A stretch of 64,000 bases of DNA from an uncultured Rhodospirillaceae bacterium (lineage in GTDB: Bacteria > Pseudomonadota > Alphaproteobacteria > UBA9219). The notes beneath the pieces are model-generated. The model was given only the letters and a program-made list of their open reading frames with translations, was not told the DNA's origin and ran no database searches. This document shows, piece by piece, positions 2,813 through 27,998 of the stretch (positions are counted from its first letter, which is position 1; each line of letters begins with the position of its first letter). The stretch is from contig CAZYPX010000001.1 of NCBI GenBank assembly GCA_964649675.1, forward strand, positions 10,470 to 74,469, in the 5' to 3' direction. The translations under genes were made by a program, and so were the position numbers.

Positions 2813-3051
2813 TGTGGACGCTTTTATCTGGCTGGCTAACCAGCAACGTCCTGAAACTGATCGGCTGGAGCACAGTAGCTTTATCCGTCCTCGCCGTCCT
2901 ATTCGGCGCACGCCAATCCGGCAAAAACGCCGAGCGCTATGACCAACTCAAGAAAATCGTGGAGATCAAAGATGCGCAATTACGTGCAACGCTTTCTGCC
3001 CCTAGTACTCGCGCTGAGCTTGTTGAATGCCTGCGGGACGGGGATTTCTAG
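2812..3051 (+). CDS. i-spanin (Rz)-like inner-membrane protein
   Basis: 79-aa ORF with an N-terminal TM segment (LIGWSTVALSVLAVLFGA) followed by a charged or coiled region. Its start overlaps the stop of the upstream gene (ATGA). Confidence 0.4.
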   Translation: MWTLLSGWLTSNVLKLIGWSTVALSVLAVLFGARQSGKNAERYDQLKKIVEIKDAQLRATLSAPSTRAELVECLRDGDF

Positions 3052-3205
3052 ATCAGCCTGTGTTTGTCCTCCAATCAAGGCGTATAGCAAAGAGATTCAG
3101 GTTGCTCTAGCGGAAGAGATCAAAGCTGCTCCTTCCGGCGCTGTATTTCCTCAATTTTTAGGTGATTATGCGCTGCTACGAAATCAAATTGGTCTATGCA
3201 AATAA
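2972..3205 (+). CDS. o-spanin (Rz1)-like lipoprotein, encoded out of frame overlapping the i-spanin gene
   Basis: GGAG lies 7 nt upstream of ATG 2972. There is a signal peptide plus a lipobox-like LLNAC, and the mature part is Cys- and Pro-containing (CVCPPIK). This is the classical overlapped Rz/Rz1 geometry. Confidence 0.4.
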   Translation: MRNYVQRFLPLVLALSLLNACGTGISRSACVCPPIKAYSKEIQVALAEEIKAAPSGAVFPQFLGDYALLRNQIGLCK

Positions 3206-6200
3206 TCCATTTGCGTTGGGTCTGTACTCGAACTTCACACGCAATCGTTTGGCACGTTCTTTAAAAGCAGCCTCTCCACCTTCTAGAATTTCACAAACTT
3301 TCCGTCGAATTTCAGGATTTTCCAACCCACCGCTGAAGTACCGAATTTTTGGAAGCTGATTTTGTTGATGCTTTCCACAAGAAGCAATGATTATCTGGTC
3401 TGCATCAGTATTAACAACAAGATTAGCATTATGAGTCACGATAATAATTTGACGACGCTTTCGCGCTGATTTAAACAGAGGAACGAGTTCATCGAAGATT
3501 GATTTTGGATCAAGGTTTTCTTCCGGTTGATCAATAATAAGAGGGCGGTCATCTTCTTTGTCTACCAGTAAATACAATGATAACAACACGATTCCGCGAG
3601 TACCTGGCGATAGCTGCTTTATATCGACCCCTTCATGTTGGATGCCATATTTTACCGTTATGTGGGCTGTCCCATATAGCCAATCCGCAACGTTGTTTGC
3701 CCAGGATCTAAAAGCTGGACGGTCACTTTTTTCAACTTGTGAATGTTCCAGAAGCCCCTGATCATATTTTTCACGGAATAAATTAAGAGCAGACACTATT
3801 TCATCAGAATTTCCTTTCTCCCATGCCACCTGAAGCTCGTTCTGAACCGCAGTTAAAAGTGCTCCCTTACCCTTAAATGGACCTGCTTTTCGCAAATCAA
3901 GAAGCGATTCTCCGCGCTCCGACCAAGATTTTATATCAGCCCGACGCTGCACAATAAAAGAAAGCTTACCAACGGTGCCTTCCTGAGCCTGAAGGTGCTT
4001 CATTAGCGGTTGGTAAAGTGCCTTTAATTGATTTTCCTCTTCTTGAATTGCTTCCAGTACAGCTCTGTACGCTTTTTTCCGTTCATCAATGATATCTTTA
4101 ATTCGTCCAGAAGCTTTTTCAGCGGCTTCAATGTCGCGTTGCAGCTTAGCTTTCTCGGCCTCATCCTTGGCTATTTTTTGACTTATGCGTGCGTATTTTT
4201 TTGCGTTTTCGTTATCAACGCCAATGAGCTGCTGCAACCTAGCAAGCTCTGCGCTTAACAATTCAAACGTTTGTTCATTCAAAGGTACTCCGGTAGGAAT
4301 TAGCGAGTCCACATGAGAGTTCTGAGCCGAAATCGCAGTTCCCGTAATTGATTTTACCAATAAATCAACTTTCTCGTTTTCACATTTGAGAATGGCATCG
4401 ACATCTCCCGCAAATTGAAAGTGGAATTTGTTCCATTGATCCTCATCGAGAAGAGCCGCAGCATGGGTTGTATGTAGTTTTCTAAATGTTTGCGGAAACA
4501 CAGAAGCCTTTATGTTCTTAATTTCTTCCTGTAAGTTTTTGAGAGCTAGTTGCCGTCTTTTCGCGGCTTCGAGTTTCGCACGTACCGAGTCAAGCGCTAA
4601 TGCAACTTCTCCATGCTTTGTTGCACGCTCTTCTTTGCCTTTCCCGACAAGCGACTGTCGATCTTTCTTATCGTTTTCTATGGCTCTTTCTTTTTCTCTC
4701 AATTGTTTCTTTAGTGCTGGAAGACTATCTATTTTTTCACGTTCTGAATTAAGCTCATCCGAAAGTGCCGATAAATGTTTTTCATGGTAGTCCCGAGAGG
4801 CCTTTGCTTGCGCTGAGCGTAAATCAAGTAACTCTCGAAAACTTCCTGCACCCATTCGATCTTCTAACTTATGAGCTTGAAAGATAACCCGTTCTATCTC
4901 TTCCATTAACTTATCTGTCGGCCCTTCTGCGGTACATAAATCTTCAACAAACTGCTGTGAAAGATACTGGACACGAGGAACATCTAGTAACTCTTCGATT
5001 TCAACAAATCGAAGGCCGTTGCTTGTAGACTCTCCCGCGCCCCATACCAGAGTAGCCGTTTCGTCGGTAAATAACTCATTCGCACGATGAATAAATGATC
5101 TCTCGTTCAACTGCGATAATGCCGAATAGCCACCGACGGCAACAAGATCCGCAAGCGCTGTTTTTCCAGAGCCGCGTGCGCCGATGACCGCTATTAAACC
5201 GGAATTAAGTTGTATGCATGAGGTTTCCAGCCAAGCTGCATCGCTTACGTGAACACTTCGAATAATCTGCGAGGGCGTTCCTCCTGTCGGGCAATTCTCA
5301 GCGATGCAAACGCGTCCATCTGGTTCTATGCACGCTTGCCTAAGTGATTCAAATGTCAAATCACCCTTAATCCATGAATATCTGTTTAAAGCGGGATTTG
5401 CGACAGCAGCTTGCTCATGAGCATCGCAGCCATGTAAACATGGCTTTCTTCCATCGTACATTTCTTCGAGTTGAACGGTTGATAGCCTTCCTTTCCCCAA
5501 CCAAAACTCTCTTTGTTTGGGGTTCGATGAAAATATGATGTGCGATACCCGTTCAATTTCGATTCTGGTTGCAGCAAAAGTAGCATCTTGCTGCAGTCCT
5601 GAGGTTCCATCCGAACCATTACCAGAAACCGCAACGAGAATATTTTGAAGTGCCCATTCGTTCTGCCTGAAAACACCTCTTAGTTGATCTAGGGAGATTT
5701 TAAATTGATTGGTTCCTGCTGAAAGCGCCTGCTTTTCATCCAAGGTTGCACCGCAGCACGCCCTTCCAAGCAGTATTAGATCCTCGCGTTCACATCTGTA
5801 GGTTTCTTTGCCGTATTCAAAGGAAAAGTTCTTTAAAAAACGTTTGATTTGATCGACATGATCAGGATCGTCAGGTGATACGAGAAAATGAGTGTTTATA
5901 GCTGTCCCGCGAGATGTTCCAACGATTAGCCGAAATTCAATGTTCGGAAAAATTAATCCGACATTTTTTAGACGTCCTGTTGCTTTATATTCCAACACTT
6001 TCTCGTAGTTCTTCAGGCTTAAGTAATCTGTATAGCCGAGCTAAAATAAAATGATCAAAAGAAGGAAACCAAATGGGATCCCCGCCTTCGCGGGGATGAC
6101 GAGTATGGGATTCATTTCAAAATATAAAACCGTCATCCCCGCGAAGGCGGGGATCCCATTTTTTGAATCATTTTATTCTGGATCAGCTATAATGCCAAGG

Positions 6201-6394
6201 GCACGAATTTGAGGATCAGACGATTCAATTTGAGAAAGAAAGGAATTCCACGGATCTTCTCCATTAAATTGATCGTTTAATATTGTTTCAGGCGTATGTA
6301 TGTGGGGATCCCAGCGATGCCAAACTGATCCTTCAGGATTTTTTGTAAAATCTCTCTTTGTATTTGGTTCCTCTGTTTTAGCGGCAATTTGCAT
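3194..6394 (-). pseudogene. PHP-domain fused to ABC/SMC-like coiled-coil ATPase (about 1000 aa), reading frame interrupted by a palindromic insertion
   Basis: The upstream 73-aa ORF (6394-6173) carries WDPHIHTPET (PHP motif I). The 934-aa ORF continues the PHP fold (NIEFRL, INTHFLV, CLHGCDAHE matching GSDAH-like motif IV). It then carries Walker A VIGARGSGKT and a coiled coil of about 400 aa. The ABC signature LSPGTRG, Walker B LIIDQPEENLD and H-loop VTHN follow. Both ORFs are in the same frame (coordinate mod 3 = 1) and are separated by the 6041-6176 element, which supplies TAA and TAG stops. Confidence 0.6.
6041..6176. mobile_element. MITE-like palindromic element (about 136 bp) inserted inside the PHP-ATPase gene
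   Basis: Perfect 28-nt inverted repeat AATGGGATCCCCGCCTTCGCGGGGATGAC / GTCATCCCCGCGAAGGCGGGGATCCCATT around a 33-nt core. It is flanked by outer inverted ends AAAATAAAATGAT / ATCATTTTATT that carry stop codons. Confidence 0.6.
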
Positions 6395-6493
6395 AACTAT
6401 CTCCCCACGATATTCTGTCGTTCCAGATTAAACTCGATAGTTCACGAGCATACTGTTAGGCAATAAAAGACCGACTCGTTTGATAAAGCCGAG

Positions 6494-9001
6494 TTAACCC
6501 GCTACGTTTCCGCGATATTCCACAACAGTCAGAACGGTATCGTATAAACCAACATCTTCAAGCTCGTGCTTGTTGATACCAGTGTATTCAAGGCTAGCAT
6601 CCTCATAGCGTTTAAATTTGTAGACAGCATCATTCATCAATGCGCTGTTGAAAACGCCAAGGCTGACCAGTAGCTCGAAGTCTTTGACGATCAATCCCGT
6701 AACTTTTTTAAACAGGCCGGGTTCAAGCTGAGTGACAACATCTCTTAAGGCTTTCTCGCGGTAATCCGTGAGATACATAAAAACGGGAATACGCGTGGCA
6801 AACTTGATAAGCTTTTCTTGAATTTGCTTGCGAAGGCTTTTGTATTCTCTTTCTTCTTCGCTTAACTGCTTCTTTTCTTTAGCCGTCAGTTCACGCTCAT
6901 TGGCTGCTTGTTTGGCCTTTTGGACAGCATCTGATTTGTTAATGATCGTTTCAATATCCTCATTGAGTGTGCGAAACCCTTCAATTCGCATTAATGCATC
7001 CATCGCGTCCTTATTTTTCATCAAGCGGTGCAGAGTGTTGTTGTCCACATTGACCAACAGAGCACTTTCCCAACGCCGTGCCAGCAGCGTGGCTGTCGTA
7101 CCACTCATTGCCATATCTAATACACCGGCGGCATTGATTTGCTTCATCGAACTACCGTCGTAAGCCAGTACGGGCAGGAAGTGTATAAACTCCTCAACCT
7201 TTTTCTCGGGGTTCGCTTCATCAATGTTCAAACGGCAGCTGTAATCTGCGATCTGACGAAGCGCACGATCGGGTGCAAAATCAAAAACGTAACACTCACG
7301 CTTGATGATTTCCTGCTTGTTCGGTGATTTGCTATCAGGGTTTTTGATGACCCACGGCGTCTGTACGCGGAACGCGGCCTGAAAATATGTCTCAGGACTT
7401 GAGCAATTTCTCAACATGAGAATACCAGTCCAAGGCTTAACCGAGACACCAGTGGTTAACTTACCGCAAGAAAGTGTAATGGTCTTTGAAATTAAAGGGT
7501 TGTCCATTGCATCTTCAACAGGTGGTAATGCCGCAACACCGAGACCTGCCTCAGAACCTGCAGCAACAATAATCTTATAGTCCTGGTAAAATTTGTTCTG
7601 CCGTTGCTTAAGCAAGTTTTTCATCGCATGGCACGATGAGACAGAAGGCAAAAACCAAAAAGTATGAGAAAGCACGTTAAGCAGTCGCGCGTCTGAAAAA
7701 GGCATGGGTGGTTTTTCTGCACCAAGCTTCAAGTTATCGACAGTTGTTTCCAAGAACGCACCACGTATCAAATCCAGCCATTTCTGGACATCGCTTTCAT
7801 ATTTAAACTTAGCTTTTGAGCCTTCACCGTTCGCTGAAAAAAAGATGTTCAAGTCGAACTGGTTATACTCCCCGCCCATGGCGATCTCACGAATAGAATC
7901 CGGCAACTGGTAGGTTAGCATGACCAAACGTGGCAAAGACTCATAAGGGTTGTTTTCGCCCTTCCATTTTTCCTTGGCGCGCTGCTCATCAGAATATGTC
8001 CAATTATAAATCTGTTCCTCGATGAACTCACCAGCAGCAATAGCGCGGAAAGGAGTGCCTGAGAGATAAAGGTATGCCGAAGTTGTAATCGGCATATTGC
8101 TCTCGTCAAAAAATTCCAAGCCTCTACCTTCGGCATCACGTATTTCTCGCTCGTCCTCGGCTTCAAAGAGATCTTTCGCGTTCTCGCGCCACGCGCCGTA
8201 ATGATATTCGTCAAAGGCTACGCAATCCCAATTTGTGGTGTGCACCCATTCATTTCTCGCCTTGATGCCACCAGCGGAATTTTTGCCCAAATAGTCTTGA
8301 AATGAGCCAAAGCAAACGATAGGCCTCTTCGGGTCAGCTTCCTCAAAAGAAAGACCGTTCCTGGAAATAAACTGCCAGCCTTTGAAATCGACGTGAGATT
8401 TAAGATCTTCCTCCCAGGCGCTCTGCACAGCGGGCTTAAAGGTCAAAACTAAAATGCGCTTCCATCCCATCTTTTTGGCAAGCTGATAGGTGGCGAATGT
8501 CTTGCCAAAACGCATTTTCGCGTTCCAAAGGAAGTGTGGCGTCTTCTTAGGATTTTCTTTCCTGAAACTTTTAAAGTAGGCAGCTGTTTTCTCTACAGCT
8601 TCCTGCTGTTCGGGTCGCATCCCAAAATCCAGCGTCCGGTTCTCCTCATTCTCAATCCCATCACGCACGGCGACGATTGACGCCTTCACGTCTTTCACGG
8701 AACACTTGAACCATTCGCCATCAGGGTTCTTGAAACCCTTCTTCTTCAAATGGCGATGAATATCGTGATCAGTGAAAGAGCTGCCGTCCTTGCGCATGGC
8801 AGATTCTTCAAGCACGATTTCGTACGGAAGTTTTCCGGGACGAAGCGTCGGGTATTGTTGTGCAACACGACTTTTAACATCCACGCTGGTAAAGCCAACT
8901 TTTAACAACCCGGCATATTGGGGGTTTGTATCACGGTAAGCATAGATTGTTGGCTTAGCCTCTGGCCTTGGCGGAAAGAAAACATCACTCATCCGTGACA
9001 T
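6494..9001 (-). CDS. SF2 helicase (ResIII/DEAH-like) with N-terminal T5orf172 (GIY-YIG-like) domain
   Basis: 835-aa ORF. N-terminus [22 protein letters not shown]…EWFKCS fits T5orf172. It is followed by Walker A-like RFGKTF and a DEYHYG box. The gene overlaps the upstream MTase gene by 17 nt. Confidence 0.6.
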
Positions 9002-10553
9002 CCCCTATCAAATCACTATCCATTGGACGAACCATTGATTCAATAAATGCGATGTCCTTCTTGTCCAAAGCATATTTCTTGTACAACTTCTCGTCCGTCC
9101 ACTCCTTGGAAAAATCCTGCATAGGCACGAAGGTATAGACCCTACGGGTAGTATCCTGAGATGGCTTGTGCAGGAGAATTAGTAGCCGTGTAAGGCGGCA
9201 TGATAGGTAGGATAACACGCTCTCAGCTTGTTTTTGGGATTCTAGCGGCCCAATACATAAATATGTTTCAGAAGAGATCGTACCCGGCTCACCAATAAAA
9301 GGGGTGCTTATGATCTTATGTGGGTAGGTATCTTTGTTGCCAGTCCCTGGAGCAGCTCGACCAGTGAAAACTTTCCATTTATCGATGTATTGGGTTCCGG
9401 ATGTAATCCTTTCTCTTGGGGTGTAGCCTACGCCCCCGTTCTGATAAACTGTCACATCATTGCTACGTTTGGCTGTTTTACCCTTGAATGTAGTCTCTAA
9501 ACCGAACGGCTTCCTAGAACTAACCAAACGATCAAAGCGCTTTGTTTCAGGCAGAGCGAGTGTTTGGGTTTGACCAGTCTCGACAGCGATGACTTTCTTA
9601 AGAATAGAAAGGCCTTCATTGAAACGAATAAAGACATCAGCTCCTTCTTCTCTAAGAGGCCGAACGGTTGTCGAAACCGGCCAATCCTTAAAGTGAGTGC
9701 TTACCTTACAAGGACCTGGATTGTCGCGGTCCCAAAGAAAGTAACAGACGCCTCCTTTGAGGCCGACACCGGGAAAAACATCGGAAGCACTTAGATAGTC
9801 ATCAATAGAACGCAATCGGTTGTCGGAAAGCATCCCGTCTCTGAATTCATCCAGTCCCTTGCCACCAGAAAACCATCTGGAAGGAATAATCATGCTCAAA
9901 TATCGCGGATTTAATTTTTTAGCTTGTTCAACAAATTTATCGTAAATGGGTGCAGCGCTAGTTCCGAAGCCAGAGTCACTCAACTGGTAGGGCGGGTTTC
10001 CTACAATGACGTCAAATCTCATGTTGAATATCCTTTCCGGCTCGTTGGTATGTATAAATTCATAGGCATGTGTTTCTAGTCCTTCTTCGCGCGAATAATT
10101 CTCTTGGCTTGCTCCACAGAACTCGCATTTTCCATTTTTCCAAGCATGTTCGGTGTGCACGTAGCGAATGTTTCCCGCCTCCCGCTTAAACGCATTTGTG
10201 ACAGAATAGTCTCCGTTAGCTTTTTTCGAACAGTACACCGAACGTCGCGATAAAAGGGATGTCATCTCAGTGATGGAAATCCCGTAAAGCTGTTTTCCGT
10301 AGATATGGTCAATGCGCTTTTGCAAATCTGGAATTTCCTTTTCAAGTCCTTTCAAAAGGCGCTTCGCTATTTCTCTCAGGAACACACCAGATTTGCACAC
10401 AGGGTCAAGAAAAGTCGCGTTTTTGTCCTGCCAAATCGTTTCAGGCAAAAGGTTAAGAACAAGATTTGCGACTAGGGGCGGCGTAAAAACCTCGTCGTTG
10501 CTCAAGTTGGCAAGACAGCTCAAAACATCCGGATTGTAGTTGATCTTAAGCAT
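8985..10553 (-). CDS. gamma-class N6-adenine DNA methyltransferase
   Basis: 522-aa ORF with motif [13 protein letters not shown], motif [13 protein letters not shown] and motif IV NPPY in the order X-I-IV, as in the Eco57I/TaqI type. Confidence 0.6.
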
Positions 10554-11202
10554 TGTCGCTCAACTTCAAAAAATGCATCAGCGGAAATTCTCTGACAGGC
10601 TTCGGGATGATTGCTGGTTCGTTTAAATCGGAAAAAAGAGTCATTTCGCCCATTGGCTGGTAATCCAGCAAATGAGCTAAAGAATAGTCCCGGCGCTTGA
10701 TCATGCTTCCATTGACCGCAGACCATTCAGCAAAAATGATGGGTTCTTGCTTGCCACAAACCGTTTTCATAGTCAGCGCATCGCCCCACAGTATGTTTTT
10801 GCTAAAAATGAATTTGACCGACTGGCGACAGGCCTCGTTGCATTCTTTGCTATAAAGAGACGTATACCGGTCATCAAAAAGATCGAAAAGTCTCTGACGA
10901 CATTGAAAGACGTTATCCTCCAGAATGTCTACGCCGTAGATTGAAGAGACTGCTAAAACAGCGTATCTTTCGTATTCGAGTTTGCTTTTCTTATAGCGGC
11001 TCTCTACGATGGCCAACTTGCGCCGCAAAACCTCGATGAGAAAATTTCCCGTTCCGCAGGCAGGTTCCAAGAAGCGGGATTCGATCCTATCGGTTTCCTG
11101 CCTAACGAGATTAAGCATCGCATTTACTTCCCTTTCAGGAGTAAACACCTCTCCGTGATCATTCACACGTTGTTTTGATTTGATTTGCAAAGCGCTAAAC
11201 AT
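10546..11202 (-). CDS. MTase-like protein with motifs X and I only (truncated or degenerate N6A-MTase module)
   Basis: [14 protein letters not shown] and [12 protein letters not shown] are present but no NPPY/F. The likely start is ATG at 11202, which overlaps the Xis stop by 8 nt (ATGTTTAG). The ORF track extends to 11358 in overlap with xis. Confidence 0.45.
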
Positions 11203-11419
11203 TTCTTCCCTTCTTTTTGCTGCTGCGCGCCCAGGCGTCAATTTCATCCAATCGAAAGCGCCACGTGCCGCCGACTTTGAAGGCAGGAATTTCGCCTCGT
11301 GTAAGAAGGGTATAGATTGAGCGTTCCGTGACCTTGAGGTAAGCGGCGACTTCCTCAACGGTAAAGACCTCTGGCAAGCGTATCTTTTGCGACTCTGTCA
11401 TAGGGCGTAAAATATTCAA
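11195..11419 (-). CDS. AlpA/Xis-family (MerR-like HTH) excisionase/regulator
   Basis: 74-aa ORF: …FTVEEVAAYLKVTERSIYTLLTRGEIPAFKVGGTWRFRLDEIDAWA, a typical phage Xis/AlpA HTH_17. It is the first gene of the minus-strand operon. Confidence 0.55.
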   Translation of the reverse strand: MNILRPMTESQKIRLPEVFTVEEVAAYLKVTERSIYTLLTRGEIPAFKVGGTWRFRLDEIDAWARSSKKKGRNV

Positions 11420-13093: not shown

Positions 13094-14083
13094 ATGCGTT
13101 TTGAAAAAGCGGAAGACTTGCTTAACCTTGCCTTTGCCATGCAGTCATCTGCGGATGGTGTTGCACTGGCAGAAATAGAAGAGATGTTCGAGGTCTCGCG
13201 CCGAACAGCTATGCGAATGCGCGATGCAGTCGTTCGCGTCTATCCGCAGGCCGAGGAAACCACGGACGAGAACAGGATCAAGCGCTGGCGCATTCCGAAT
13301 GCGGTGAACGGCAGACATCTCTGCCTAACCCCCGACGAACTCGCGACCCTTGATATGGCTGCCAAGGCGTTCAACGGGAAAGGCCTTGCACTACAGTCCA
13401 AGGCGCTGCGTTCGTTATGCGGAAAAATCAAAAGCTTTCAACGATGTGACATTTCACGCCGTGTCGAACCCGATCTGGAGGCGCTGATCGAAGCCGAAGG
13501 GCTTGCCGCACGTCCTGGCCCGAAGCCCAAAATCCAAGTTGAACACCTTCATTCTTTGCGCGAAGCCATTAAAGCCTGCCGCATCGTAGAGCTTCATTAT
13601 CGTGGCAAAGGCAAGAAGGACGCCGAGGTCAAACGCATTTGCCCTTACGGCTTTCTTTACGGGCACCGCCACTATCTTGTTGGCGGCGCTGCTCAGAAGG
13701 ATCGCGCGGGATCCTATTATCTCTTTTGCCTCTCCCAGATTGATGGCGTAACCATCACAAAGGAAAGCTTCCGGCGGGATCCGTCATTCAACCTGCAATC
13801 CTATGCTGAACAAGCTTTTGGCGTATGGATGGAAAAGCCGCAGGAAATTGTCTGGAAGTTCTCACCGCGTGCTGCTGTTGCTGCACGGGATTTTGTGTTC
13901 CACCCCAAGCAGACGATTGAGGAAAAAAAGGACGGTTCTCTGATCGTGCGCTTCAAGGCAGGAGGCATGCTTGAGATGGCATGGCATCTGTACATGTGGG
14001 GTGATCAGGTTGAAGTGATTAAGCCACATGAACTGAAGAAAATGTTAAAGAGCAGACCGTCAAAGTGGGAAGGTTTGCCCTAA
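13094..14083 (+). CDS. WYL-domain transcriptional regulator (HTH-WYL-WCX; BrxR/CapW-like)
   Basis: 329-aa ORF with an N-terminal HTH and a WYL core …RHYLVGGAAQKDRAGSYYLFCLSQIDGVTI. Its stop overlaps the start of the downstream nuclease gene (TAATG). Confidence 0.65.
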   Translation: MRFEKAEDLLNLAFAMQSSADGVALAEIEEMFEVSRRTAMRMRDAVVRVYPQAEETTDENRIKRWRIPNAVNGRHLCLTPDELATLDMAAKAFNGKGLALQSKALRSLCGKIKSFQRCDISRRVEPDLEALIEAEGLAARPGPKPKIQVEHLHSLREAIKACRIVELHYRGKGKKDAEVKRICPYGFLYGHRHYLVGGAAQKDRAGSYYLFCLSQIDGVTITKESFRRDPSFNLQSYAEQAFGVWMEKPQEIVWKFSPRAAVAARDFVFHPKQTIEEKKDGSLIVRFKAGGMLEMAWHLYMWGDQVEVIKPHELKKMLKSRPSKWEGLP

Positions 14084-15390
14084 TGCTCAATCCATTCGAT
14101 CAATACGATGGCGATGAAAATAGGCTAACGCATGCGTTGGCGATCACCCTTGAACGTAGCTCCGCCTTTCTAGAAGCATTTGTTAATCAATGTGGTGCGA
14201 AGCGTGCACTCGGCAAAAAAGTCAGGGTGGAGATACAAGTTGTCATGCACTCTGCTGATGCTTCTGAGGAAACAGCCATCCCAGATCTCTTACTTGTTGA
14301 TGAGGAAGGACGGCGAGGTCTCATTTTTGAGGTTAAGGTAGGCTCTCCATTGAAATTAGAGCAACTAAAGCGCCATGAATCTCGCGCTCGTGACTATGGA
14401 ATAGATGTCGCAGGTAAATACGCGATCACAGGCAGACAAATTGATGCATTGAAGATTGAACAATGGAAGCAAACTTCTATTCAGAAAGACTGGCACCACA
14501 TCGCGTGGACTGCAATTTATGAGTCAGCCAACAAACTAAAAGCTAAATGCAGCTGGTCTGCTGATCTCGCTGATTACCTTGGAATTGTAGCGGCTCAGAG
14601 AGGAGATGACGATATGGATGGTAGGGTAAAATTGACAACATTTACCGGCATTCCCTTTAAAGCACCGCATAGAAAAAAAAATCAAGAAGGCATGTATGAC
14701 TACGATCCAAACCAAGCAAAGCGACATCTATTGGCTTTAGTCGACTGCCTCGAAAGTGATCAAAGATTATTGACCGACCTTGGTTTTCTTAAAGGACAGA
14801 AACCACGGCGTCGCGGCAGTGTCGAGGTATCGAACGCTGTATGGGATTATCTCTCACCGTTGGGGCAAGAGGATCACCACATTAGCGGCTATCATTTTAC
14901 CATCGGTATCGCCACAGATCATGCAAGTGCGATGCTGACGGTTCCGAATGCAAGTGACGAATTTAGAAAATTAAGGCGATTTGTGAAAGATAAAGGCGAA
15001 GCTGCATTTGAAAAGCTTATACATAGTTTTCTCCAGAGAATTAGAGATTTAAACCTCGACAGGTTTGGTTTTCAGCCATGCATTGTCATGAAACAGCGCC
15101 GCTATAGAACCATGCGAGAGGTTTATGCAGTCGATGGTTCTTTGACATTCGATTTAAGAACGCTTGTTGGTCGTCCTGCAGAGGGGAAAGCGCCCGCCAT
15201 ACATAGGCAGCCCGAATGGACATCGTTCTGTTATCAACTTCTGAAAGATAAAAATTCAAATATCCAGTTTCAGATCGGTCTTCATTTTATGTACGGTTTT
15301 ACAGAGGAATTAAATCGGGCAGAAGCGGCTGAATATTTTAAAAATTCGCTGAGAGCTACAACAGTCTTTTTGCAGGAGTTAAAGTCTTAA
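14083..15390 (+). CDS. PD-(D/E)xK nuclease-family protein
   Basis: Carries the motif AIPDLLLVDEEGRRGLIFEVKVGS (PD…E-V-K). It is translationally coupled to the WYL regulator. An A9 homopolymer lies at 14673-14681 inside the ORF. Confidence 0.5.
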   Translation: MLNPFDQYDGDENRLTHALAITLERSSAFLEAFVNQCGAKRALGKKVRVEIQVVMHSADASEETAIPDLLLVDEEGRRGLIFEVKVGSPLKLEQLKRHESRARDYGIDVAGKYAITGRQIDALKIEQWKQTSIQKDWHHIAWTAIYESANKLKAKCSWSADLADYLGIVAAQRGDDDMDGRVKLTTFTGIPFKAPHRKKNQEGMYDYDPNQAKRHLLALVDCLESDQRLLTDLGFLKGQKPRRRGSVEVSNAVWDYLSPLGQEDHHISGYHFTIGIATDHASAMLTVPNASDEFRKLRRFVKDKGEAAFEKLIHSFLQRIRDLNLDRFGFQPCIVMKQRRYRTMREVYAVDGSLTFDLRTLVGRPAEGKAPAIHRQPEWTSFCYQLLKDKNSNIQFQIGLHFMYGFTEELNRAEAAEYFKNSLRATTVFLQELKS

Positions 15391-18300
15391 GCCACTGCCT
15401 CTTTTTCCATTCCATTCACGTACGCAGAACGATCCGCATAAGCCTTCGCCCAACAGAGCGTGTTAACGAGGCGCATCTGATCGATTGTATTGCAGGATAT
15501 CTCCAACAACCGTGGATTGGCATAAATCACGGCCAAGCATCGGGCGCGGCTGATGGCGACGTTTAGCCGGTTTCTGCTGAATAAGAATTCAATGTTGCGA
15601 GGCAATTCCTCTGCCGACGAGGTCACCATCGAAATCAGCACAACAGGCGCTTCCTGCCCTTGAAACCGGTCAACAGTGCCAACGCGCGCGCCTTCCGGCA
15701 GCGTTTTTTCCAAAAGGTCAACTTGCATATTGTAGGGCGTGACGACCAGAATATCTTCAATGCCTAGTTCGTGCTTGTCGCCAACTTCATCCACCCACGT
15801 CATACCTAACAGGCTTTCATAGGTGTGTTTGAGACGCTCGGCTTCTTCCTCGCTCTTTTGCGAACATCCTTCATGCTCGACTTCAACAAACCGCAAGCCA
15901 GCGGATATGATGGCATCCGGATCCCGATTGCCATCAGCTACAATATGCCGTCTCGCGTTATCCAGATCTGGTTGCAAACGACCATCGTACACAGCGTCTG
16001 AAATAAAGTGGCAAATCGCCGGATGCATGCGCCGCGTTGTAGCCAGGAATATCCCCTGTTCAGGCGGCACAGTCGCCGCTTCGCCAAGAAGATACTCCAG
16101 CGCAGAAAGCCCTGAGCTGCCCGGATGAATGCCTTGAATAGGCTGGGACAACTGCATCTGATCGCCAACAAGAACAATGTTCCGCGCGGACGTCCCCATA
16201 GCGACGATATTGGCAATGCTGACTTGACCAGCCTCGTCGATGAACAGGTAATCCAAAACCTGATCGAATGCCGGACGCGAAAAGAGCCAAGCTGTTCCTG
16301 CGACCAGATTATAGGCTTCGCTTTCAGCCTCTTCATTTTTCTCCGTGTTTTGGATGAAGCCCTTGCTATCTATCGCATGATCCTCGCCAGAGCATTTTTT
16401 GACCCCACGAAAATGTATGTTCTGCTCAACGGCGCGCTTTTCCACGGCGGCAAGCAAGTTATTGATTGCTTTATGAGAGTTTGAGGCAACGCCCACCCGT
16501 TTACCCTGTTTTAGCAGCTCCACAATTGCATGAGAGGATGTGTACGTCTTGCCCGTGCCCGGCGGCCCTTGGATCAGGATATGGCTGTTATCCAAACGCG
16601 CTACGGCGCTCACTGCTGCTAACGTAGGATCATCTCCCGGTTTGATAATAGGGTCGCCGTGTTGGCAACCATTGATGTGTGGCAACTCTTTACGCAAGAT
16701 GCTCGTTACGGCTGGGTATTGTCCTTGATTGCCATTCGCGACGGCCTCGGCATAGCGGAGAATGGCACCGCGCAAGACTTTGTCCTCTAACGGCCCTGGC
16801 GGAATGAGCGACAGACAATCAGGCAGATCTGTCTGTTTGTTGCTAATCTTGAGAGCAATCCGTCGGGCTTTATCGTCCAGACCTACGATGGTGCCGAAAC
16901 GCTTGCCCGTTAATGAGCTGATCGGGTCAGTTCCAACACCCATTTTGAAATCTTGTGCTGGAAACTCGAACTCATAGACGAGTGATCTGTCGCGGGGACT
17001 CAATTTGTAAGGCGTAATGGATTTGTCGAGTGTGCACTTGCCGATGCACTCAGCGTCTTCGACCATTTCCTCATCCGACATATCCAAGCGTGTAAACAGC
17101 GCCCACCAACCCGGCTTTGACTCACGGCGATGAAACTCAAGCAAGTGACCGACAAGCTCACGCCACGGCTTCTCGGTTTCAGGAACGCCTTCCTGCAGTT
17201 TTGCGATGAGTTGGGCTGTACGCGCCTCAGCCTCTTGTCGTGCGGCGTCCTTCTCCGGATTTTCGGGTTCGTCAGAATTAGGGGAAAACCAATCGACATC
17301 TGAGGGCCGCAACCTCAACAACCAATCACGGCACATCAAGGTCGAGCGGCAGTCGAATTCGTTGTAATCGGAGATTTCTCTCAGAATGGCATCATCGCCC
17401 AAAGCCCGCCATTTCTCGTACATGACAATGCTGTCACCGGCTGTCTTGACTTCACCCGCGCGTTTCTCGGCATAGAATGTTTCCATATTCTTAATGGAAT
17501 AACGCGGCTCGGAAACGCGAACGGCCTCGCGGACGACTTTGTAAAGATCGACCAGCTTCCGGTTGCGCAGAAGGAAATCAACTTCGGCCTCGCGCGTGCC
17601 GTGGTACATGGCCAAATTCTTTAGAGCCGTCTCCTCATACGCGGCGTAGTGGTAGATGTAGGCATCTGGATAGGCCGCAAGCCGAGCCATGATGAAATCC
17701 ATGACAGCCTCAAAAGCCTTTTTCTCCTCCTGGCGATCATGCGCCCAGAAAGCCTTAAACTCTGGTTCTCGCTTTTCATTTAGTAGGACGAAGCCGAACA
17801 GATATTCAAGACGCGGATTTCCGTAGTGGGGATCGCCTTCCATATCGAAGAAGAGATCGCCATCGTTAGGCCTGGGAAGACGAGCAAAACCTTTATTCGC
17901 CTGAAGAGGCAAGATTTCGCATTTGTCCTGACCATCGTCTCTCTTGGCAATTTGTAAGCGGGCTTGTTCGCGCAGGCGCGTTAAGGCATCCGGTTGCAAC
18001 TTGGGAATGGCTTGATCAACTGAAAGATTGGCTAGCTCCCGCATGCTGTTGATACCGGCACGGCGTAATTTCTTGATCTGGCTGCCCTGTATATTGGCCA
18101 CCATACGTAGATGTTCGCTCCGTTCCCATTCCTCTTCGCAACGAAATGCCCAACGGCACTTGCTGCACCGCGAACAAGGCTCGCCGGTGCGAGGCATATA
18201 TTTCTGTTTAATGAAATCTAGAAAACGCTGCCCTGCCAACCCTTGATAGTACTGGAAATCAGAAACGCGCAGTGTGACCTTGCTCTTATTGCCGAGCACG

Positions 18301-18806
18301 ACATGCAGATCACGCGGGTAAAGCCCTTGTTCTTCGGCCAGAAGATCCGAATACACATAAAGCTGGACGACATATTCCGGCTTTGCGTGCAAGGCGAGCT
18401 TCGTATCTGCAACTTCATAACTAAAATTGCCAAGTTTCGATGGCTTTTCCGTACGCAAGAGAAAATCGGCAAAGCCGTTCCATGGATCCCTGAGAAAGGC
18501 AGCCTGATAGATTACATCGACTCCGGATGCCAAAGCTTCCTTCGTCAGGGCAACCCTGCGGGTTGTCGACGTATCCTGCGGGATTTCAGCAATAGAACAA
18601 CCCAACTGCCGCAAATGCTCCAAATAGTCGTATTCATGCTGCAGCCCTTTTTGTTTCAGAAGTTCAGAGCTTTCATCGGTTTCCTTGGGCAAATCGGCTG
18701 GCGAGAAAACCTGTTGCACATCGAATAGCGTGGCACACGGACATTCCAGATACGTCACCAGATCGGAGGGAGAAAGCAACAGCCTGTTCTGTTCATCGCG
18801 GCGCAT
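15387..18806 (-). CDS. Dna2/Nhi-like nuclease-helicase (N-terminal RecB/Cas4-like Fe-S nuclease plus C-terminal SF1 helicase)
   Basis: 1139-aa ORF. N-terminus has LVTYLECPCATLFD and a Cys cluster CSRCSKCRWAFRC. C-terminus has Walker A ILIQGPPGTGKTYT, the DEAGQVS box and SF1B motifs. It is convergent with the nuclease gene, with a 4-nt overlap. Confidence 0.6.
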   Translation of the reverse strand: MRRDEQNRLLLSPSDLVTYLECPCATLFDVQQVFSPADLPKETDESSELLKQKGLQHEYDYLEHLRQLGCSIAEIPQDTSTTRRVALTKEALASGVDVIYQAAFLRDPWNGFADFLLRTEKPSKLGNFSYEVADTKLALHAKPEYVVQLYVYSDLLAEEQGLYPRDLHVVLGNKSKVTLRVSDFQYYQGLAGQRFLDFIKQKYMPRTGEPCSRCSKCRWAFRCEEEWERSEHLRMVANIQGSQIKKLRRAGINSMRELANLSVDQAIPKLQPDALTRLREQARLQIAKRDDGQDKCEILPLQANKGFARLPRPNDGDLFFDMEGDPHYGNPRLEYLFGFVLLNEKREPEFKAFWAHDRQEEKKAFEAVMDFIMARLAAYPDAYIYHYAAYEETALKNLAMYHGTREAEVDFLLRNRKLVDLYKVVREAVRVSEPRYSIKNMETFYAEKRAGEVKTAGDSIVMYEKWRALGDDAILREISDYNEFDCRSTLMCRDWLLRLRPSDVDWFSPNSDEPENPEKDAARQEAEARTAQLIAKLQEGVPETEKPWRELVGHLLEFHRRESKPGWWALFTRLDMSDEEMVEDAECIGKCTLDKSITPYKLSPRDRSLVYEFEFPAQDFKMGVGTDPISSLTGKRFGTIVGLDDKARRIALKISNKQTDLPDCLSLIPPGPLEDKVLRGAILRYAEAVANGNQGQYPAVTSILRKELPHINGCQHGDPIIKPGDDPTLAAVSAVARLDNSHILIQGPPGTGKTYTSSHAIVELLKQGKRVGVASNSHKAINNLLAAVEKRAVEQNIHFRGVKKCSGEDHAIDSKGFIQNTEKNEEAESEAYNLVAGTAWLFSRPAFDQVLDYLFIDEAGQVSIANIVAMGTSARNIVLVGDQMQLSQPIQGIHPGSSGLSALEYLLGEAATVPPEQGIFLATTRRMHPAICHFISDAVYDGRLQPDLDNARRHIVADGNRDPDAIISAGLRFVEVEHEGCSQKSEEEAERLKHTYESLLGMTWVDEVGDKHELGIEDILVVTPYNMQVDLLEKTLPEGARVGTVDRFQGQEAPVVLISMVTSSAEELPRNIEFLFSRNRLNVAISRARCLAVIYANPRLLEISCNTIDQMRLVNTLCWAKAYADRSAYVNGMEKEAVA

Positions 18807-26129: not shown

Positions 26130-27998
26130 ATGTGCAGGATATATGGGTATATTTCAGATGGGTCGGATCGCCTCGACCAAAAGATTTTTCAGGTCTCACA
26201 ATCCCAGATAAATGGTGGGCCTGACTCACAGAAAATGGTTGCTTTCCCCGAGTATGGGATTGGATGCAATCGTCTCGCCATAACCGACCCAAGCGGCGGC
26301 CTTCAACCCTATAATGGAGTGCCTGGTGTGTACGCCGTCCTGAATGGCGAAATTTATAATCACGATGAACTGCGACGCGAACTTGAAGGTTACGGATATC
26401 GGTTCAAAGACAGATGCGACGGCACAATTATACCTGCCTTATATGAGAAATACGGCGCGGCGTTCCCTGAATATCTCGATGGGATGTTTACAATTGCCGT
26501 TCTTGATTTGCGTCGAAACAAACCATCCTTGCTGTTGGCCTCCGACACATCTGGTATAAAACCGGTTTATTTTACCCATCGTTCTGGCAATGGCTCACTC
26601 GCTTTTGCGACCGAAATCCCGGCCTTGTTGAACTTCGGCATTGCGCCAGGCTCAATATGGAAAACAGGGATTGATCACTATCTGACAACCCGTAGCGTCA
26701 CAGGCCTTCGCACATTATTGGATGACGTGTATTCGTTGCCGCCGGGCAGCGTTTTACATAAACGATTTGGCAAAGAGCCGAAAATCTCAGCTTACAAGTC
26801 TCGCATTCAATATAACGGCCCTACGCCAAAAGATTTAAATGAAGCAAGCGAGATTTTCAGGGATCTTTTGGCACACGAAGTCAAAAGTCTGTCCAGAGCG
26901 GACGCAAAGGTCTGCAGCATAAACAGCGGAGGTCTGGACTCAAGCCTTGTCACCTCGCTCCTTTGCAGGGCGACTGAAAGTCAGGTCAGCTCGTTTCACG
27001 TCGCTGTCGCAGGCAACTGGCCCTTCGATGAACGCGTCTATGCACGTGAGCTGGCTACCACGTACGGTATCGATTATCACGAGGCCATCGTTCACCCCGA
27101 AGAGATACCGGCGCTGTTCTCAAAGATGGCCTACCATTTGGGACAGCCAAACTGCGCGCCCCACGCCCTAAGCACATTTCGATTGTTTGAAAAGGTCTCG
27201 CAGCATGGCTTCAGGGTTGCGCTAACCGGCGAAGGCTCTGATGAACTATTCTGCGGCCATAGCCGGATCGGGCTTGCCATTAGAGATCAGAATAGAAACT
27301 GGGCTTCGAATTATCTGGATCGCATGGCTCCTTGTCCAGAAGACATGCGTTGGTCGCTTTACAGCAGCGATTTTGCCCAGAGTTTGAAGGCTTCTCAATC
27401 CGTATGCAAAGACAAAAAGACTCAATGGCTCCACAGCATTGAAGACAGGTCGGTTGCGGTCAGAAAATTCGAGCAATGCTTTAGCTTGCCTTACTACATC
27501 CTCCATCGTGTCGAGCCACTCGCTATGGCATCGGGCGTTGAAGTGCGCGTGCCTTTCTGCCAGCCACGCATCATGGACTTTGCGTGGAAAGTTGATCCTA
27601 ATCTCTTTCTTGCCAATGGAGATCGCGGCAAGGCAATCGTCTACGGTGCGGCAGAAGGCCTTGTTCCCCGCTCGATCTTAGAGCGTCCCAAGCAGCCTTT
27701 CACTCTTCCTGTTATCAAATTGATGCACAAGGGAAGCCCGCTGATGGACTTCATTAAAAGCACTCTCTTTTCGCACAGCTTGGCTGAGGATGGAACATTC
27801 AACCAAAGCGGCCTTAAGCGCCTTATCGAAAGGCAAGAAGCCTCACCCTCCAAGGAGACCGCTTTCACCATCTGGGCCGTGGCGAATTACGCTGTCTGGA
27901 AGGACATGGTTGAGGAAATCGTGAAGCAAGCACCTGCGCCAGAGCGGGCTGCAACTCTCGTGGCACAGCCAACCTGCCGCTTGGCTGCATTACCTTAA
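26130..27998 (+). CDS. asparagine synthetase B-like glutamine-dependent amidoligase
   Basis: N-terminal MC nucleophile (class II GATase), PP-loop SINSGGLDSS, 622 aa. The divergent promoter region 25855-26129 is shared with the amidinotransferase operon. Confidence 0.7.
   Translation: MCRIYGYISDGSDRLDQKIFQVSQSQINGGPDSQKMVAFPEYGIGCNRLAITDPSGGLQPYNGVPGVYAVLNGEIYNHDELRRELEGYGYRFKDRCDGTIIPALYEKYGAAFPEYLDGMFTIAVLDLRRNKPSLLLASDTSGIKPVYFTHRSGNGSLAFATEIPALLNFGIAPGSIWKTGIDHYLTTRSVTGLRTLLDDVYSLPPGSVLHKRFGKEPKISAYKSRIQYNGPTPKDLNEASEIFRDLLAHEVKSLSRADAKVCSINSGGLDSSLVTSLLCRATESQVSSFHVAVAGNWPFDERVYARELATTYGIDYHEAIVHPEEIPALFSKMAYHLGQPNCAPHALSTFRLFEKVSQHGFRVALTGEGSDELFCGHSRIGLAIRDQNRNWASNYLDRMAPCPEDMRWSLYSSDFAQSLKASQSVCKDKKTQWLHSIEDRSVAVRKFEQCFSLPYYILHRVEPLAMASGVEVRVPFCQPRIMDFAWKVDPNLFLANGDRGKAIVYGAAEGLVPRSILERPKQPFTLPVIKLMHKGSPLMDFIKSTLFSHSLAEDGTFNQSGLKRLIERQEASPSKETAFTIWAVANYAVWKDMVEEIVKQAPAPERAATLVAQPTCRLAALP

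What the first reader, a model, noticed from the sequence alone, without database searches (positions are those of the whole stretch)
6041..6176. 136-bp MITE-like palindromic element inserted inside the PHP-ATPase gene, splitting the PHP domain
Nested perfect inverted repeats (a 28-nt inner pair and 13-nt outer AT-rich ends) form a near-perfect hairpin. The element sits exactly between two ORFs that are in the same frame and together form one domain. Its AT-rich ends contribute TAA and TAG stops. Removing 6041-6175 (135 nt) would restore an uninterrupted frame. The outcome is either a recent inactivating insertion or a Rickettsia-RPE-like in-frame element that has acquired stops.
Basis: seen in the sequence. 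Interest (0 to 1): 0.6.

Follow-up and report, generated by a model that had tools for sequence, protein, structure and literature searches.

The report
Small mobile palindrome splits defence gene
A 157-bp non-coding mobile palindrome has landed at a TA inside a phage-defence-type ATPase gene (trlF) of an uncultured Micavibrio-like bacterium and broken it; this is an ordinary kind of event, but the clean insertion site shows exactly which unit moved.

Summary
It placed the ends at the two in-frame stop codons. The true element is 6033-6189 (157 bp). It is flanked by a duplicated TA at 6031-32 and 6190-91. Removing 159 nt makes the gene collinear, without a gap, with 34 of 34 TrlF homologues at ALGI|TDY.

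The core is a head-to-head pair of identical CGTC-1 REP units (Di Nocera 2013). This class includes Neisseria dRS3 and Rickettsia RPE-6 and is reported in Micavibrio. The pair has the 29-nt spacer seen in 8 of 14 such pairs in the fetched loci, seven of them in a Micavibrio MAG. It sits inside an AT-rich shell with TAGC...GCTA ends.

Two other full-length copies with the same shell, asymmetry and TA flanks exist. One is in Micavibrio sp. IMS_BF and one in a metagenome contig. Both are intergenic.

All six reading frames through the element contain stops, so it is not a tolerated RPE-like peptide insert. TrlF is inactivated, probably recently, because the other 1013 codons are intact.

No transposase lies in the window. 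The TA duplication plus terminal inverted repeats suggests an IS630-type enzyme acting in trans, which is an inference.

Verdict: a new member of a known kind, of modest interest.

The parts
3194..6394 (-). trlF (TrlF-family PHP + AAA-like ATPase), interrupted. The reconstructed product is 1013 aa.
   Evidence: NCBIfam NF045780 scores 678 bits, matching profile positions 2-943 of 944. Homologues of 990-1015 aa show 51-57% identity over 95-99% of the query. There is no other stop or frameshift once 159 nt are removed.
6191..6394 (-). 5' fragment of trlF, codons 1-68, which includes the PHP HxH motif. The open frame runs on into the element as far as the TAA at 6173-6175.
   Evidence: It is called as a 73-aa gene in the ENA assembly.
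3194..6032 (-). 3' fragment of trlF, codons 69-1013. Gene callers start it at an internal GTG/TTG (933-934 aa).
   Evidence: (P0001).
6031..6032 (.). TA, left copy of the target-site duplication.
   Evidence: The native sequence inferred from homologues is CTG-TA-ATGCC (GGC ATT ACA = G-I-T). Only one TA is needed.
6190..6191 (.). TA, right copy of the target-site duplication.
   Evidence: TA flanks are also present at both ends of the L068 and L125 copies.
6033..6189 (.). The inserted element: 157 bp, non-coding, with termini TAGCC...AGCTA. It folds into one long hairpin.
6033..6073 (+). Long shell arm (terminal inverted repeat, 32% GC): TAGCCGAGCTAAAATAAAATGATCAAAAGAAGGAAACCAAA.
   Evidence: Conserved in L068 and L125 in the same position relative to the core. 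Composition.
6074..6101 (-). CGTC-1 REP unit 1. Read on the minus strand: CGTC head, 8-bp stem ATCCCCGC/GCGGGGAT, 4-nt loop GAAG, CCCA tail.
   Evidence: Family definition from Di Nocera 2013.
6102..6130 (.). 29-nt AT-rich spacer between the two CGTC heads.
   Evidence: 29 nt is the modal spacer of head-to-head pairs in the fetched loci (8 of 14, seven of them in the Micavibrio sp. IMS_BF loci, the eighth being the window). The spacer sequence is not conserved.
6131..6158 (+). CGTC-1 REP unit 2, identical to unit 1 (a homodimer, heads facing inward).
6159..6189 (+). Short shell arm (terminal inverted repeat, 26% GC): TTTTTTGAATCATTTTATTCTGGATCAGCTA.
6173..6175 (-). First in-frame stop (TAA), contributed by the short shell arm. 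It ends the 73-aa N-terminal fragment.
6041..6043 (-). Second in-frame stop (TAG), contributed by the long shell arm.

Best explanation
The feature is a 157-bp non-autonomous transposable element. Its core is a head-to-head pair of identical CGTC-1 REP units separated by 29 nt. The core is wrapped in an AT-rich shell of imperfect terminal inverted repeats that end in TAGC...GCTA.

The element inserted at a TA dinucleotide spanning codons 68/69 (ATT|ACA) of trlF and duplicated that TA. It carries stops in the reading frame, so it cuts the PHP domain between its HxH motif and the rest of the protein and inactivates TrlF. trlF is the last gene of a low-GC restriction/defence operon.

Shown here:
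- the exact limits of the element;
- the TA duplication;
- the gene disruption;
- membership of the core in the CGTC-1 class;
- two other full-length copies at unrelated loci.

Inferred:
- The insertion is evolutionarily recent, because the remaining 1013 codons carry no other lesion.
- It happened in this Micavibrio-like lineage, because the core matches the Micavibrio type with the 29-nt spacer.
- It was mobilised in trans by a cut-and-paste DDE transposase of the IS630/Tc1-mariner type encoded elsewhere. Terminal inverted repeats plus a 2-bp TA duplication are that family's signature, as proposed for RUP with IS630-Spn1.
For: Anatomy and significance:
- The inner arms are 31 nt and 100% complementary, and the outer arms reach TATAGC/GCTATA.
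- The fold has z = -12.6.

Insertion site:
- Removing 159 nt gives a 1013-aa ORF.
- That ORF aligns without a gap to 34 of 34 homologues at ALGI|TDY.
- It matches the TrlF HMM end to end.

Family:
- The core fits every feature that defines CGTC-1 in PMC3733652.
- It translates to VIPAKAGI, as listed for CGTC-1 in that paper's supplement.
- The paper reports CGTC-1 in Micavibrio.
- The exact 26-mer is found in at least 120 genome stretches.

Other full-length copies:
- L068 (Micavibrio sp. IMS_BF) and L125 (Ga0307423_1013025) share the shell, the long-arm/short-arm asymmetry, the TAGC...GCTA ends and the TA flanks.
- Both lie between convergent genes.

Other points:
- The host is Micavibrio-like.
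- Bacterial MITEs are typically under 200 bp, AT-rich, with terminal inverted repeats, TA at the termini and target duplications. RUP is linked to IS630-Spn1 and TA targets (PMC2229807).
Against: - No transposase of any kind is encoded in the 64-kb window or the 6.8 kb beyond it.
- No insertion sequence with matching ends was found in about 1 Mb of fetched loci.
- Only three full-length copies are known, so the ends rest on few sequences.
- The 9 nt next to TAGC differ between copies and between the two arms of one copy.
- No empty-site allele of this very gene exists in the databases. The next homologue is 57% identical, so the pre-insertion sequence is inferred from protein conservation and not observed.
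- TA could in principle be a fixed part of the ends, joined by a mechanism that makes no duplication.
- Di Nocera 2013 found no transposase of any class regularly associated with CGTC repeats.
Confidence: 0.8

Rival explanations
1. REPIN-type mobility. The head-to-head REP pair is the active unit. It is excised and inserted as a single-stranded hairpin by a REP-associated tyrosine (HUH) transposase (RAYT). The shell is only extended hairpin stem, and the TA flanks reflect a cleavage or target preference and not a duplication.
For: - The core has the REPIN architecture: two inverted REPs, a short spacer, and one long hairpin (REPIN definition in PMC3337134 and PMC3116915, abstracts).
- Most Micavibrio head-to-head pairs lack this shell yet are dispersed. 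The pair can therefore spread without it.
Against: - CGTC repeats, unlike GTAG repeats, are not associated with RAYT or other transposase genes (PMC3733652).
- No Y1/HUH transposase is present in the window.
- IS200/IS605-type insertion makes no target duplication (my own knowledge). Here exactly one extra TA is present.
- The unit that moved included the AT-rich shell with conserved TAGC ends.
Confidence: 0.12
2. Nested origin. The shell is an independent TA-duplicating MITE into whose centre a CGTC-1 REP pair once inserted. Only the shell is recognised by the transposase, and the REP pair is passive cargo.
For: - The shell and core have very different composition: 26-32% GC against 71%.
- The arms are 10 nt out of register.
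- The same kind of REP pair occurs without this shell, and inside a different palindromic shell (TTCAAGAGTTGG...CCAACTCTTGAA) at other Micavibrio loci.
- Di Nocera 2013 reports REP pairs sitting inside longer palindromes in A. variabilis and H. neapolitanus.
Against: - No shell-only copy was found in the loci held.
- All three full-length copies carry the pair at the same place and in the same orientation.
- This rival is a statement about origin. It is compatible with the best explanation for the present insertion.
Confidence: 0.3
3. Tolerated or functional insertion. The element behaves like a Rickettsia RPE-type in-frame peptide insert, or the gene works as two polypeptides, or the element is a reversible switch that excises precisely between the TA repeats to turn TrlF back on.
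For: - The inserted length is a multiple of 3 (159 nt).
- The inner pair alone is open in the gene's frame, reading NGIPAFAGMT...VIPAKAGIP.
- CGTC-1 pairs do occur in-frame in genes, including Micavibrio DNA polymerase I.
- The rest of the gene is undamaged.
- A long palindrome between short direct repeats is a classic substrate for slippage deletion (my own knowledge).
Against: - There are two stops in the gene's frame, and stops in all six frames of the full element.
- The split removes the HxH metal-binding motif from the rest of one PHP domain.
- None of the 119 listed homologues (990-1015 aa) is split there.
- No excised allele exists in the databases, and the held ENA contig is identical to the window.
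Confidence: 0.06
4. Not a mobile element. The feature is a local palindromic amplification or an assembly artefact.
For: There is only one copy in 64 kb, and none in 21 kb of a close relative with 94% TypA identity.
Against: - The same composite, with the same ends, occurs at two unrelated loci in other organisms.
- The core is a widespread repeat class.
- The junctions are exact and flanked by TA.
- The ENA contig carrying the element is 100% identical to the window, and a second contig of 76 kb from the NCBI record also encodes the same 933-aa fragment. These may derive from the same reads.
Confidence: 0.02

Closest known systems
CGTC-1 REP repeats (Di Nocera, De Gregorio & Rocco 2013, PMC3733652). 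The class includes Neisseria dRS3 and Rickettsia conorii RPE-6 and was reported in Micavibrio aeruginosavorus.
   Same: - The inner units have the unpaired CGTC head, the 8-bp stem starting with AT, the 4-nt loop and the CCA tail.
- They form a head-to-head homodimer, the predominant CGTC-1 arrangement.
- They encode VIPAKAGI, as listed for CGTC-1.
- The host is Micavibrio-like.
   Different: - The pair is wrapped in a 31-41-nt AT-rich shell with TAGC ends and TA flanks. That paper does not describe such a shell for Micavibrio.
- Intragenic CGTC repeats in the paper are read through in-frame, whereas this one carries stops and breaks the gene.
- In the Micavibrio sp. IMS_BF loci the pairs are heterodimers, whereas here the two units are identical over 31 nt.
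REP pairs embedded in longer palindromes (same paper): A. variabilis GTAG-15 pairs inside TATAGGA...TCCTATA, and H. neapolitanus CGTC-1 pairs inside a 41-bp palindrome.
   Same: The nested design is the same: a palindromic shell around a REP pair. The A. variabilis shell also begins TATAG and ends CTATA, like TATAGC...GCTATA here.
   Different: The shell sequence and the host differ. No filled and empty site, and hence no duplication, was reported for those cases.
Classical TA-flanked bacterial MITEs: Correia/NEMIS (Neisseria), RUP (S. pneumoniae, linked to IS630-Spn1), ERIC, Nezha (PMC2229807, PMC3184786).
   Same: All share these features: size of 100-170 bp, AT-rich terminal inverted repeats, TA at both ends, a target duplication, one long stem-loop, an intergenic location for most copies, and occasional gene disruption.
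   Different: - There is no detectable sequence similarity beyond TATAG at the tips. That comparison with Correia was made from memory and not tested.
- The centre is a GC-rich REP pair, not IS-derived sequence.
- No cognate insertion sequence has been identified.
REPINs mobilised by RAYTs (Bertels & Rainey 2011).
   Same: Both consist of two inverted REPs plus a spacer that form a hairpin of about 100 nt, and both are non-autonomous.
   Different: - REPINs are built from GTAG-type REPs and are tied to a single-copy RAYT gene.
- CGTC repeats have no such association.
- A target duplication is present here.

Membership tests
CGTC-1 REP family (Di Nocera 2013) | Unpaired terminal CGTC (or TGTC/CCTC) head | tested here: met
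   Both units begin with CGTC (6131-6134 on the plus strand; 6098-6101 read on the minus strand).; definition.
CGTC-1 REP family (Di Nocera 2013) | 8-bp stem with complementary A-T at the first and second positions, and a 4-nt loop | tested here: met
   Stem ATCCCCGC/GCGGGGAT, loop GAAG.
CGTC-1 REP family (Di Nocera 2013) | Short unpaired tail fitting CCA | tested here: met
   The tail is CCCA at 6155-6158, with its mirror TGGG at 6074-6077.
CGTC-1 REP family (Di Nocera 2013) | Repeated in the genome, mostly as head-to-head pairs | tested here: inconclusive
   The head-to-head pair is present, and the class is abundant in related MAGs. However, only this one pair occurs in the 64-kb window, and the rest of the host genome could not be scanned.
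Bacterial MITE (as defined in PMC2229807 and PMC3184786) | Small size (under about 200-400 bp) with no coding capacity | tested here: met
   The element is 157 bp and has stops in all six frames.
Bacterial MITE | Terminal inverted repeats | tested here: met
   With the TA flanks, TATAGC/GCTATA pair at 6 of 6 positions, and there is an 11-nt perfect block AATAAAATGAT. Overall the outer arms are 79% complementary over 33 nt. The ends are conserved in 3 copies.
Bacterial MITE | Target-site duplication flanking the element | tested here: met
   A TA duplication is inferred from the gap-free reconstruction against 34 homologues. TA flanks are present in 3 of 3 copies. No true empty-site allele was available.
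Bacterial MITE | Multiple dispersed copies | tested here: met
   Three copies lie at unrelated loci in three organisms or samples: the window, L068 and L125. Copy number within one genome is unknown.
Bacterial MITE | Terminal inverted repeats match those of an autonomous insertion sequence whose transposase acts in trans | tested here: inconclusive
   No transposase lies in the window, and no matching insertion-sequence end was found in the loci held. ISfinder and the whole host genome were not available.
REPIN/RAYT system | Cognate RAYT (HUH tyrosine transposase) gene flanked by the same REPs | tested here: inconclusive
   None is present in the window or flanks. The literature reports no RAYT association for CGTC repeats. 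The whole genome was not searched.
REPIN/RAYT system | REP of the GTAG-tagged kind | tested here: not met
   The head is CGTC, not GTAG.
Rickettsia-type RPE in-frame insert | Open reading frame through the element, so that the host protein is read through | tested here: not met
   There are two stops in the gene's frame, and at least one stop in each of the six frames.
TrlF family AAA-like ATPase (the disrupted gene) | Full-length match to NF045780 above its cut-off | tested here: met
   The reconstructed protein scores 678.3 bits against a cut-off of 350, matching profile positions 2-943 of 944.

The most novel reading that the evidence does not exclude
CGTC-type REPs are widespread from alphaproteobacteria to Neisseria and Rickettsia, and no transposase has ever been tied to them. 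On this reading they spread, at least in Micavibrio-like bacteria, by riding inside TA-duplicating MITE shells moved by an IS630-like enzyme. This insertion would then be the first filled and empty site that defines the moving unit. In addition, the perfect palindrome between TA repeats could excise precisely and act as an on/off switch for a defence gene.
Probability: 0.12. Interest if true: 0.55.

Novelty: new member of a known kind. Interest (0 to 1): 0.3.

Why it matters
For annotation, 3194-6394 is one trlF pseudogene broken by a mobile element, not two genes. The adjacent methyltransferase and helicase-nuclease genes lie upstream in the same minus-strand gene run, so they should be unaffected by any polar effect.

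For repeat biology, how CGTC REPs move is unknown, because no dedicated transposase has been found. An intragenic insertion whose pre-insertion sequence can be rebuilt to the base is rare evidence. It shows that here the moving unit was the REP pair together with an AT-rich inverted-repeat shell, and that it duplicated TA. This points to a DDE cut-and-paste enzyme and away from an HUH enzyme, and it gives a concrete sequence (TAGCYG...ATAAAATGAT) with which to look for the partner transposase.

It is also one more case of a mobile element knocking out a defence gene in a horizontally acquired island.

Tried and rejected
- **Rfam.** Only sub-threshold hairpin look-alikes were found (miRNA precursors, FtrB and others), all far below their gathering scores. 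No known RNA family matches.
- **Degenerate searches of the window** for further REP units or shell ends found none beyond the element itself.
- **Empty-site allele.** The protein database holds only the 933-aa fragment at 100% identity, and the next homologue is 57% identical. The exact look-up of the neighbouring 835-aa protein found nothing.
- **Transposase hunt.**
  - Pfam on window ORFs, and precomputed Pfam for the ENA contig, found no transposase of any kind.
  - A search for shell ends about 1-2 kb apart in all fetched loci found none.
- **More full-length copies.**
  - The viral scan found 0.
  - The metagenome scan with a shell-plus-REP pattern gave 7 stretches, of which only L125 is real and the other 6 are chance matches.
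  - The plasmid database gave only core matches, in Azospirillum, Tistrella and others.
  - A search with the peptide encoded by the element returned only shell-less pairs.
  - Two relatives' contigs fetched through TypA held no copy.
- **A fuzzy-regex scan** timed out and was replaced by BLAST.
- **Promoter and terminator scan.** One junction promoter-like site (minus strand, 6198-6170) is no more than chance gives (2 found against 1.8 expected). The REP-plus-T-run terminator-like site at 6135-6154 is antisense to trlF. Neither is used as evidence.
- **Naming the organism** from cluster names failed, because none is given.
Full report

Yes, with corrections.

- The window holds two perfectly complementary 31-nt arms, 6071-6101 and 6131-6161 (AAATGGGATCCCCGCCTTCGCGGGGATGACG and its complement), 29 nt apart.
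- A second, imperfect inverted repeat (79% over 33 nt) reaches out to 6031 and 6191.
- As a single strand, 6025-6197 folds at -93.8 kcal/mol against -42.1 +/- 4.1 for 200 shuffles. That gives z = -12.6, and no shuffle folds as well.
- The 25-nt core occurs twice in the window, both inside the element, against 0.00 expected.
- The flanking ORFs 3194-5998 and 6173-6394 share one minus-strand frame.
- The in-frame stops are TAA at 6173-6175 and TAG at 6041-6043.

Its perfect outer pair is 11 nt, not 13. Its coordinates 6041-6176 are simply the span between the two stops.

**2. True limits and the insertion site**

On the plus strand the sequence reads CTG-TA-[TAGCCGAG...GATCAGCTA]-TA-ATGCC. Removing 159 nt (157 nt plus one TA, in any of the equivalent registers) gives a 1013-codon ORF with no internal stop.

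- This ORF reads ...IRALGI|TDYLSL..., which aligns without a gap to 34 of 34 homologues.
- The element is therefore 6033-6189 (157 bp). It inserted at a TA that is now present on both sides, at 6031-32 and 6190-91.
- The pre-insertion sequence is inferred from protein conservation, not observed. The databases hold no uninterrupted allele: only the 933-aa fragment at 100% identity, then 57%.
- The ENA contig that carries the element is 100% identical to the window over 15,995 nt. The same 933-aa fragment is also on record from an NCBI contig of 76,265 nt.

**3. The gene**

- The rebuilt protein matches NCBIfam NF045780 (TrlF family AAA-like ATPase) at 678 bits against a cut-off of 350, over profile positions 2-943 of 944. 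It has weaker similarity to the anti-phage protein Ppl.
- The insertion separates the N-terminal HRWDPHIH (the PHP HxH motif) from the conserved TDY and everything downstream.
- Upstream on the same strand lie an Eco57I-type methyltransferase and a T5orf172/ResIII protein. Together these resemble a split type IIG restriction-modification enzyme.
- The block at 3-11 kb has 42-48% GC, against 51% for the whole window. This is consistent with an acquired defence island.
- trlF is the last gene of that minus-strand run, so the insertion should affect only TrlF.

**4. Anatomy of the element**

| Coordinates | Part | GC |
|---|---|---|
| 6033-6073 | long shell arm | 32% |
| 6074-6101 | REP unit, minus orientation | 71% |
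| 6102-6130 | spacer | 24% |
| 6131-6158 | REP unit, plus orientation | 71% |
| 6159-6189 | short shell arm | 26% |

- Each REP unit reads CGTC-ATCCCCGC-GAAG-GCGGGGAT-CCCA.
- The two CGTC heads face each other.
- The outer and inner arms are 10 nt out of register, because the long arm carries an extra AAGAAGGAAACC.

**5. What the core is**

Di Nocera et al. 2013 (PMC3733652) define the CGTC-1 repeat by the following features:

- an unpaired CGTC head;
- an 8-bp stem that starts with AT;
- a 4-nt loop;
- a CCA tail;
- mostly head-to-head homodimers;
- a mainly alphaproteobacterial distribution that explicitly includes Micavibrio aeruginosavorus.

Neisseria dRS3 and Rickettsia conorii RPE-6 are members of this class. 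The core here meets every feature tested on the sequence. In the gene's frame it encodes GIPAFAGMT...VIPAKAGIP, and VIPAKAGI is the peptide that the paper's supplement lists for CGTC-1 units.

The hosts include Novosphingobium, Sphingomonas, Micavibrio sp. IMS_BF, MAGs labelled Bdellovibrionales, a Rhodospirillaceae MAG and Noviherbaspirillum.

Among 14 head-to-head pairs in the fetched sequences, 8 have the same 29-nt spacer as here. Seven of those are in Micavibrio sp. IMS_BF, where all are heterodimers, and the eighth is the window itself. The window pair is a perfect homodimer.

**6. The shell and other full-length copies**

Most Micavibrio pairs lack the outer shell. Two other sequences carry it:

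- L068, from Micavibrio sp. IMS_BF contig DYDA01000032;
- L125, from metagenome contig Ga0307423_1013025.

All three copies share the same order: long arm, REP(-), spacer, REP(+), short arm. They also share the blocks ATAAARTGAT, the ends TAGC...GCTA (GCTTA in L068) and a TA on each side.

The L068 and L125 copies lie between convergent genes, the usual place for REPs and MITEs.

The 9 nt next to TAGC vary between copies and between the arms of one copy. This pattern fits protein-recognised ends better than a conserved stem.

**7. How it most likely works**

Shown:

- A discrete 157-bp non-coding unit with inverted-repeat ends is present at three unrelated loci.
- In the window it sits inside a conserved codon pair, with one extra TA.
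- It puts two stops into the frame.
- All six frames of the element contain stops, so it cannot be a tolerated RPE-style peptide insert.

Inferred:

- The insertion is recent, because 1013 codons are otherwise intact.
- It arose in this lineage. The host's TypA is closest to MAGs labelled Alphaproteobacteria or Bdellovibrionales. NCBI files Micavibrio under Bdellovibrionales. The spacer type is the Micavibrio one.
- It was moved in trans by a DDE transposase of the IS630/Tc1-mariner kind. The combination of small size, AT-rich terminal inverted repeats, TA at the termini and a target duplication is the classical profile of a bacterial MITE. RUP is attributed to IS630-Spn1 with TA targets (PMC2229807).

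No transposase of any kind is encoded in the window or its flank. No matching insertion-sequence end was found in the loci held. The enzyme therefore remains unidentified.

**8. Rivals**

- **RAYT/REPIN-type single-strand mechanism.** It fits the architecture of the core. It does not fit the extra TA or the shell that moved with the pair. The literature also reports that CGTC repeats are not linked to tyrosine or other transposases.
- **Nested origin** (a REP pair that once inserted into a TA-type MITE). This is plausible given the contrast in composition, the register shift, and a second, different shell around other Micavibrio pairs. It is compatible with the main explanation.
- **Functional split gene or excision switch.** This cannot be excluded without reads, but nothing supports it.
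- **Artefact or local amplification.** The two other copies contradict this.

**9. Comparison with what is known, and novelty**

The core is a member of the CGTC-1 class. The whole element behaves like a TA-flanked MITE such as Correia, RUP, ERIC or Nezha.

The nested design has precedents in the same 2013 paper: A. variabilis GTAG-15 pairs inside TATAGGA...TCCTATA, and H. neapolitanus CGTC-1 pairs inside a 41-bp palindrome.

What is added here:

- a particular shell family;
- a Micavibrio-like host;
- a base-exact reconstruction of the insertion site for a CGTC-type element.

This makes it a new member of a known kind. Its interest is modest. The main value is a correct pseudogene annotation and a concrete lead to the unknown mobilising enzyme of CGTC repeats.

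Noticed in passing
window 35893-37770 (minus strand), stop at 36703-36705: RecQ is split into two adjacent same-frame ORFs by a single in-frame TAG (...AKLR*MIEDGE...). One ORF carries DEAD + Helicase_C. The other carries RecQ_Zn_bind + RQC + HRDC. This could be a pseudogene, a sequencing error or recoding.
   Followed up: partly
window about 3000-11000: A low-GC block (42-48% against 51% for the whole window) holds trlF, a T5orf172/ResIII protein and an Eco57I-type methyltransferase. The last two together resemble a split type IIG restriction-modification enzyme. A further small methyltransferase-like ORF lies at 10546-11358. WYL regulators (13094-14083) and an MkoA-like RecB/IGHMBP2 helicase (15387-18806) are nearby. 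This is probably an acquired defence island.
   Followed up: partly
L018 4600-4800; L056 2040-2260; L009 1450-1650; L022 2230-2430 (Micavibrio sp. IMS_BF): Other CGTC-1 head-to-head heterodimers sit inside a different short palindromic shell, (T)TCAAGRGTTGG ... CCAACKCTTRAAG, with no obvious TA flanks. The same REP pair therefore occurs in at least two shell types.
   Followed up: partly
L068 949-960: In Micavibrio sp. IMS_BF the tip of the full-length element supplies the TAA stop codon of the upstream 263-aa ORF (...LNALEKI*).
   Followed up: no
L125 1425-1470: In the metagenome copy, one REP unit has a second small GC-rich hairpin (GTCCTTGC-GAAA-GCGAGGAC) inserted in its loop, giving a palindrome nested in a palindrome.
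   Followed up: no
L024 1135-1304 (MAG labelled Bdellovibrionales, JBAZNY010000009): Three same-strand copies of the exact 26-mer lie at a 72-nt period (1135, 1207, 1279), and three more copies occur within 4.3 kb. This is a clustered array, an arrangement the 2013 paper calls rare for CGTC repeats.
   Followed up: no
Genome-contig scan, L001-L120: The identical 26-nt CGTC-1 sequence is found in very distant lineages. These include Sphingomonadales, Noviherbaspirillum (Betaproteobacteria), Lysobacter and Chiayiivirga (Gammaproteobacteria), and MAGs labelled Bacteroidales, Fibrobacter and Candidatus Moraniibacteriota. The last three could reflect binning contamination or horizontal spread.
   Followed up: no
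L121 15860-22109 (beyond the window's start): Genes of the gene-transfer-agent type (Phage-tail_3/Rcc01698_C, Phage_BR0599) lie just outside the window, consistent with an alphaproteobacterial host.
   Followed up: no
window 26130-27998 and 34050-35876: Two asparagine-synthase paralogues (GATase_7 + Asn_synthase) lie 6 kb apart, each with HTH_3 (Xre-type) regulator genes nearby.
   Followed up: no
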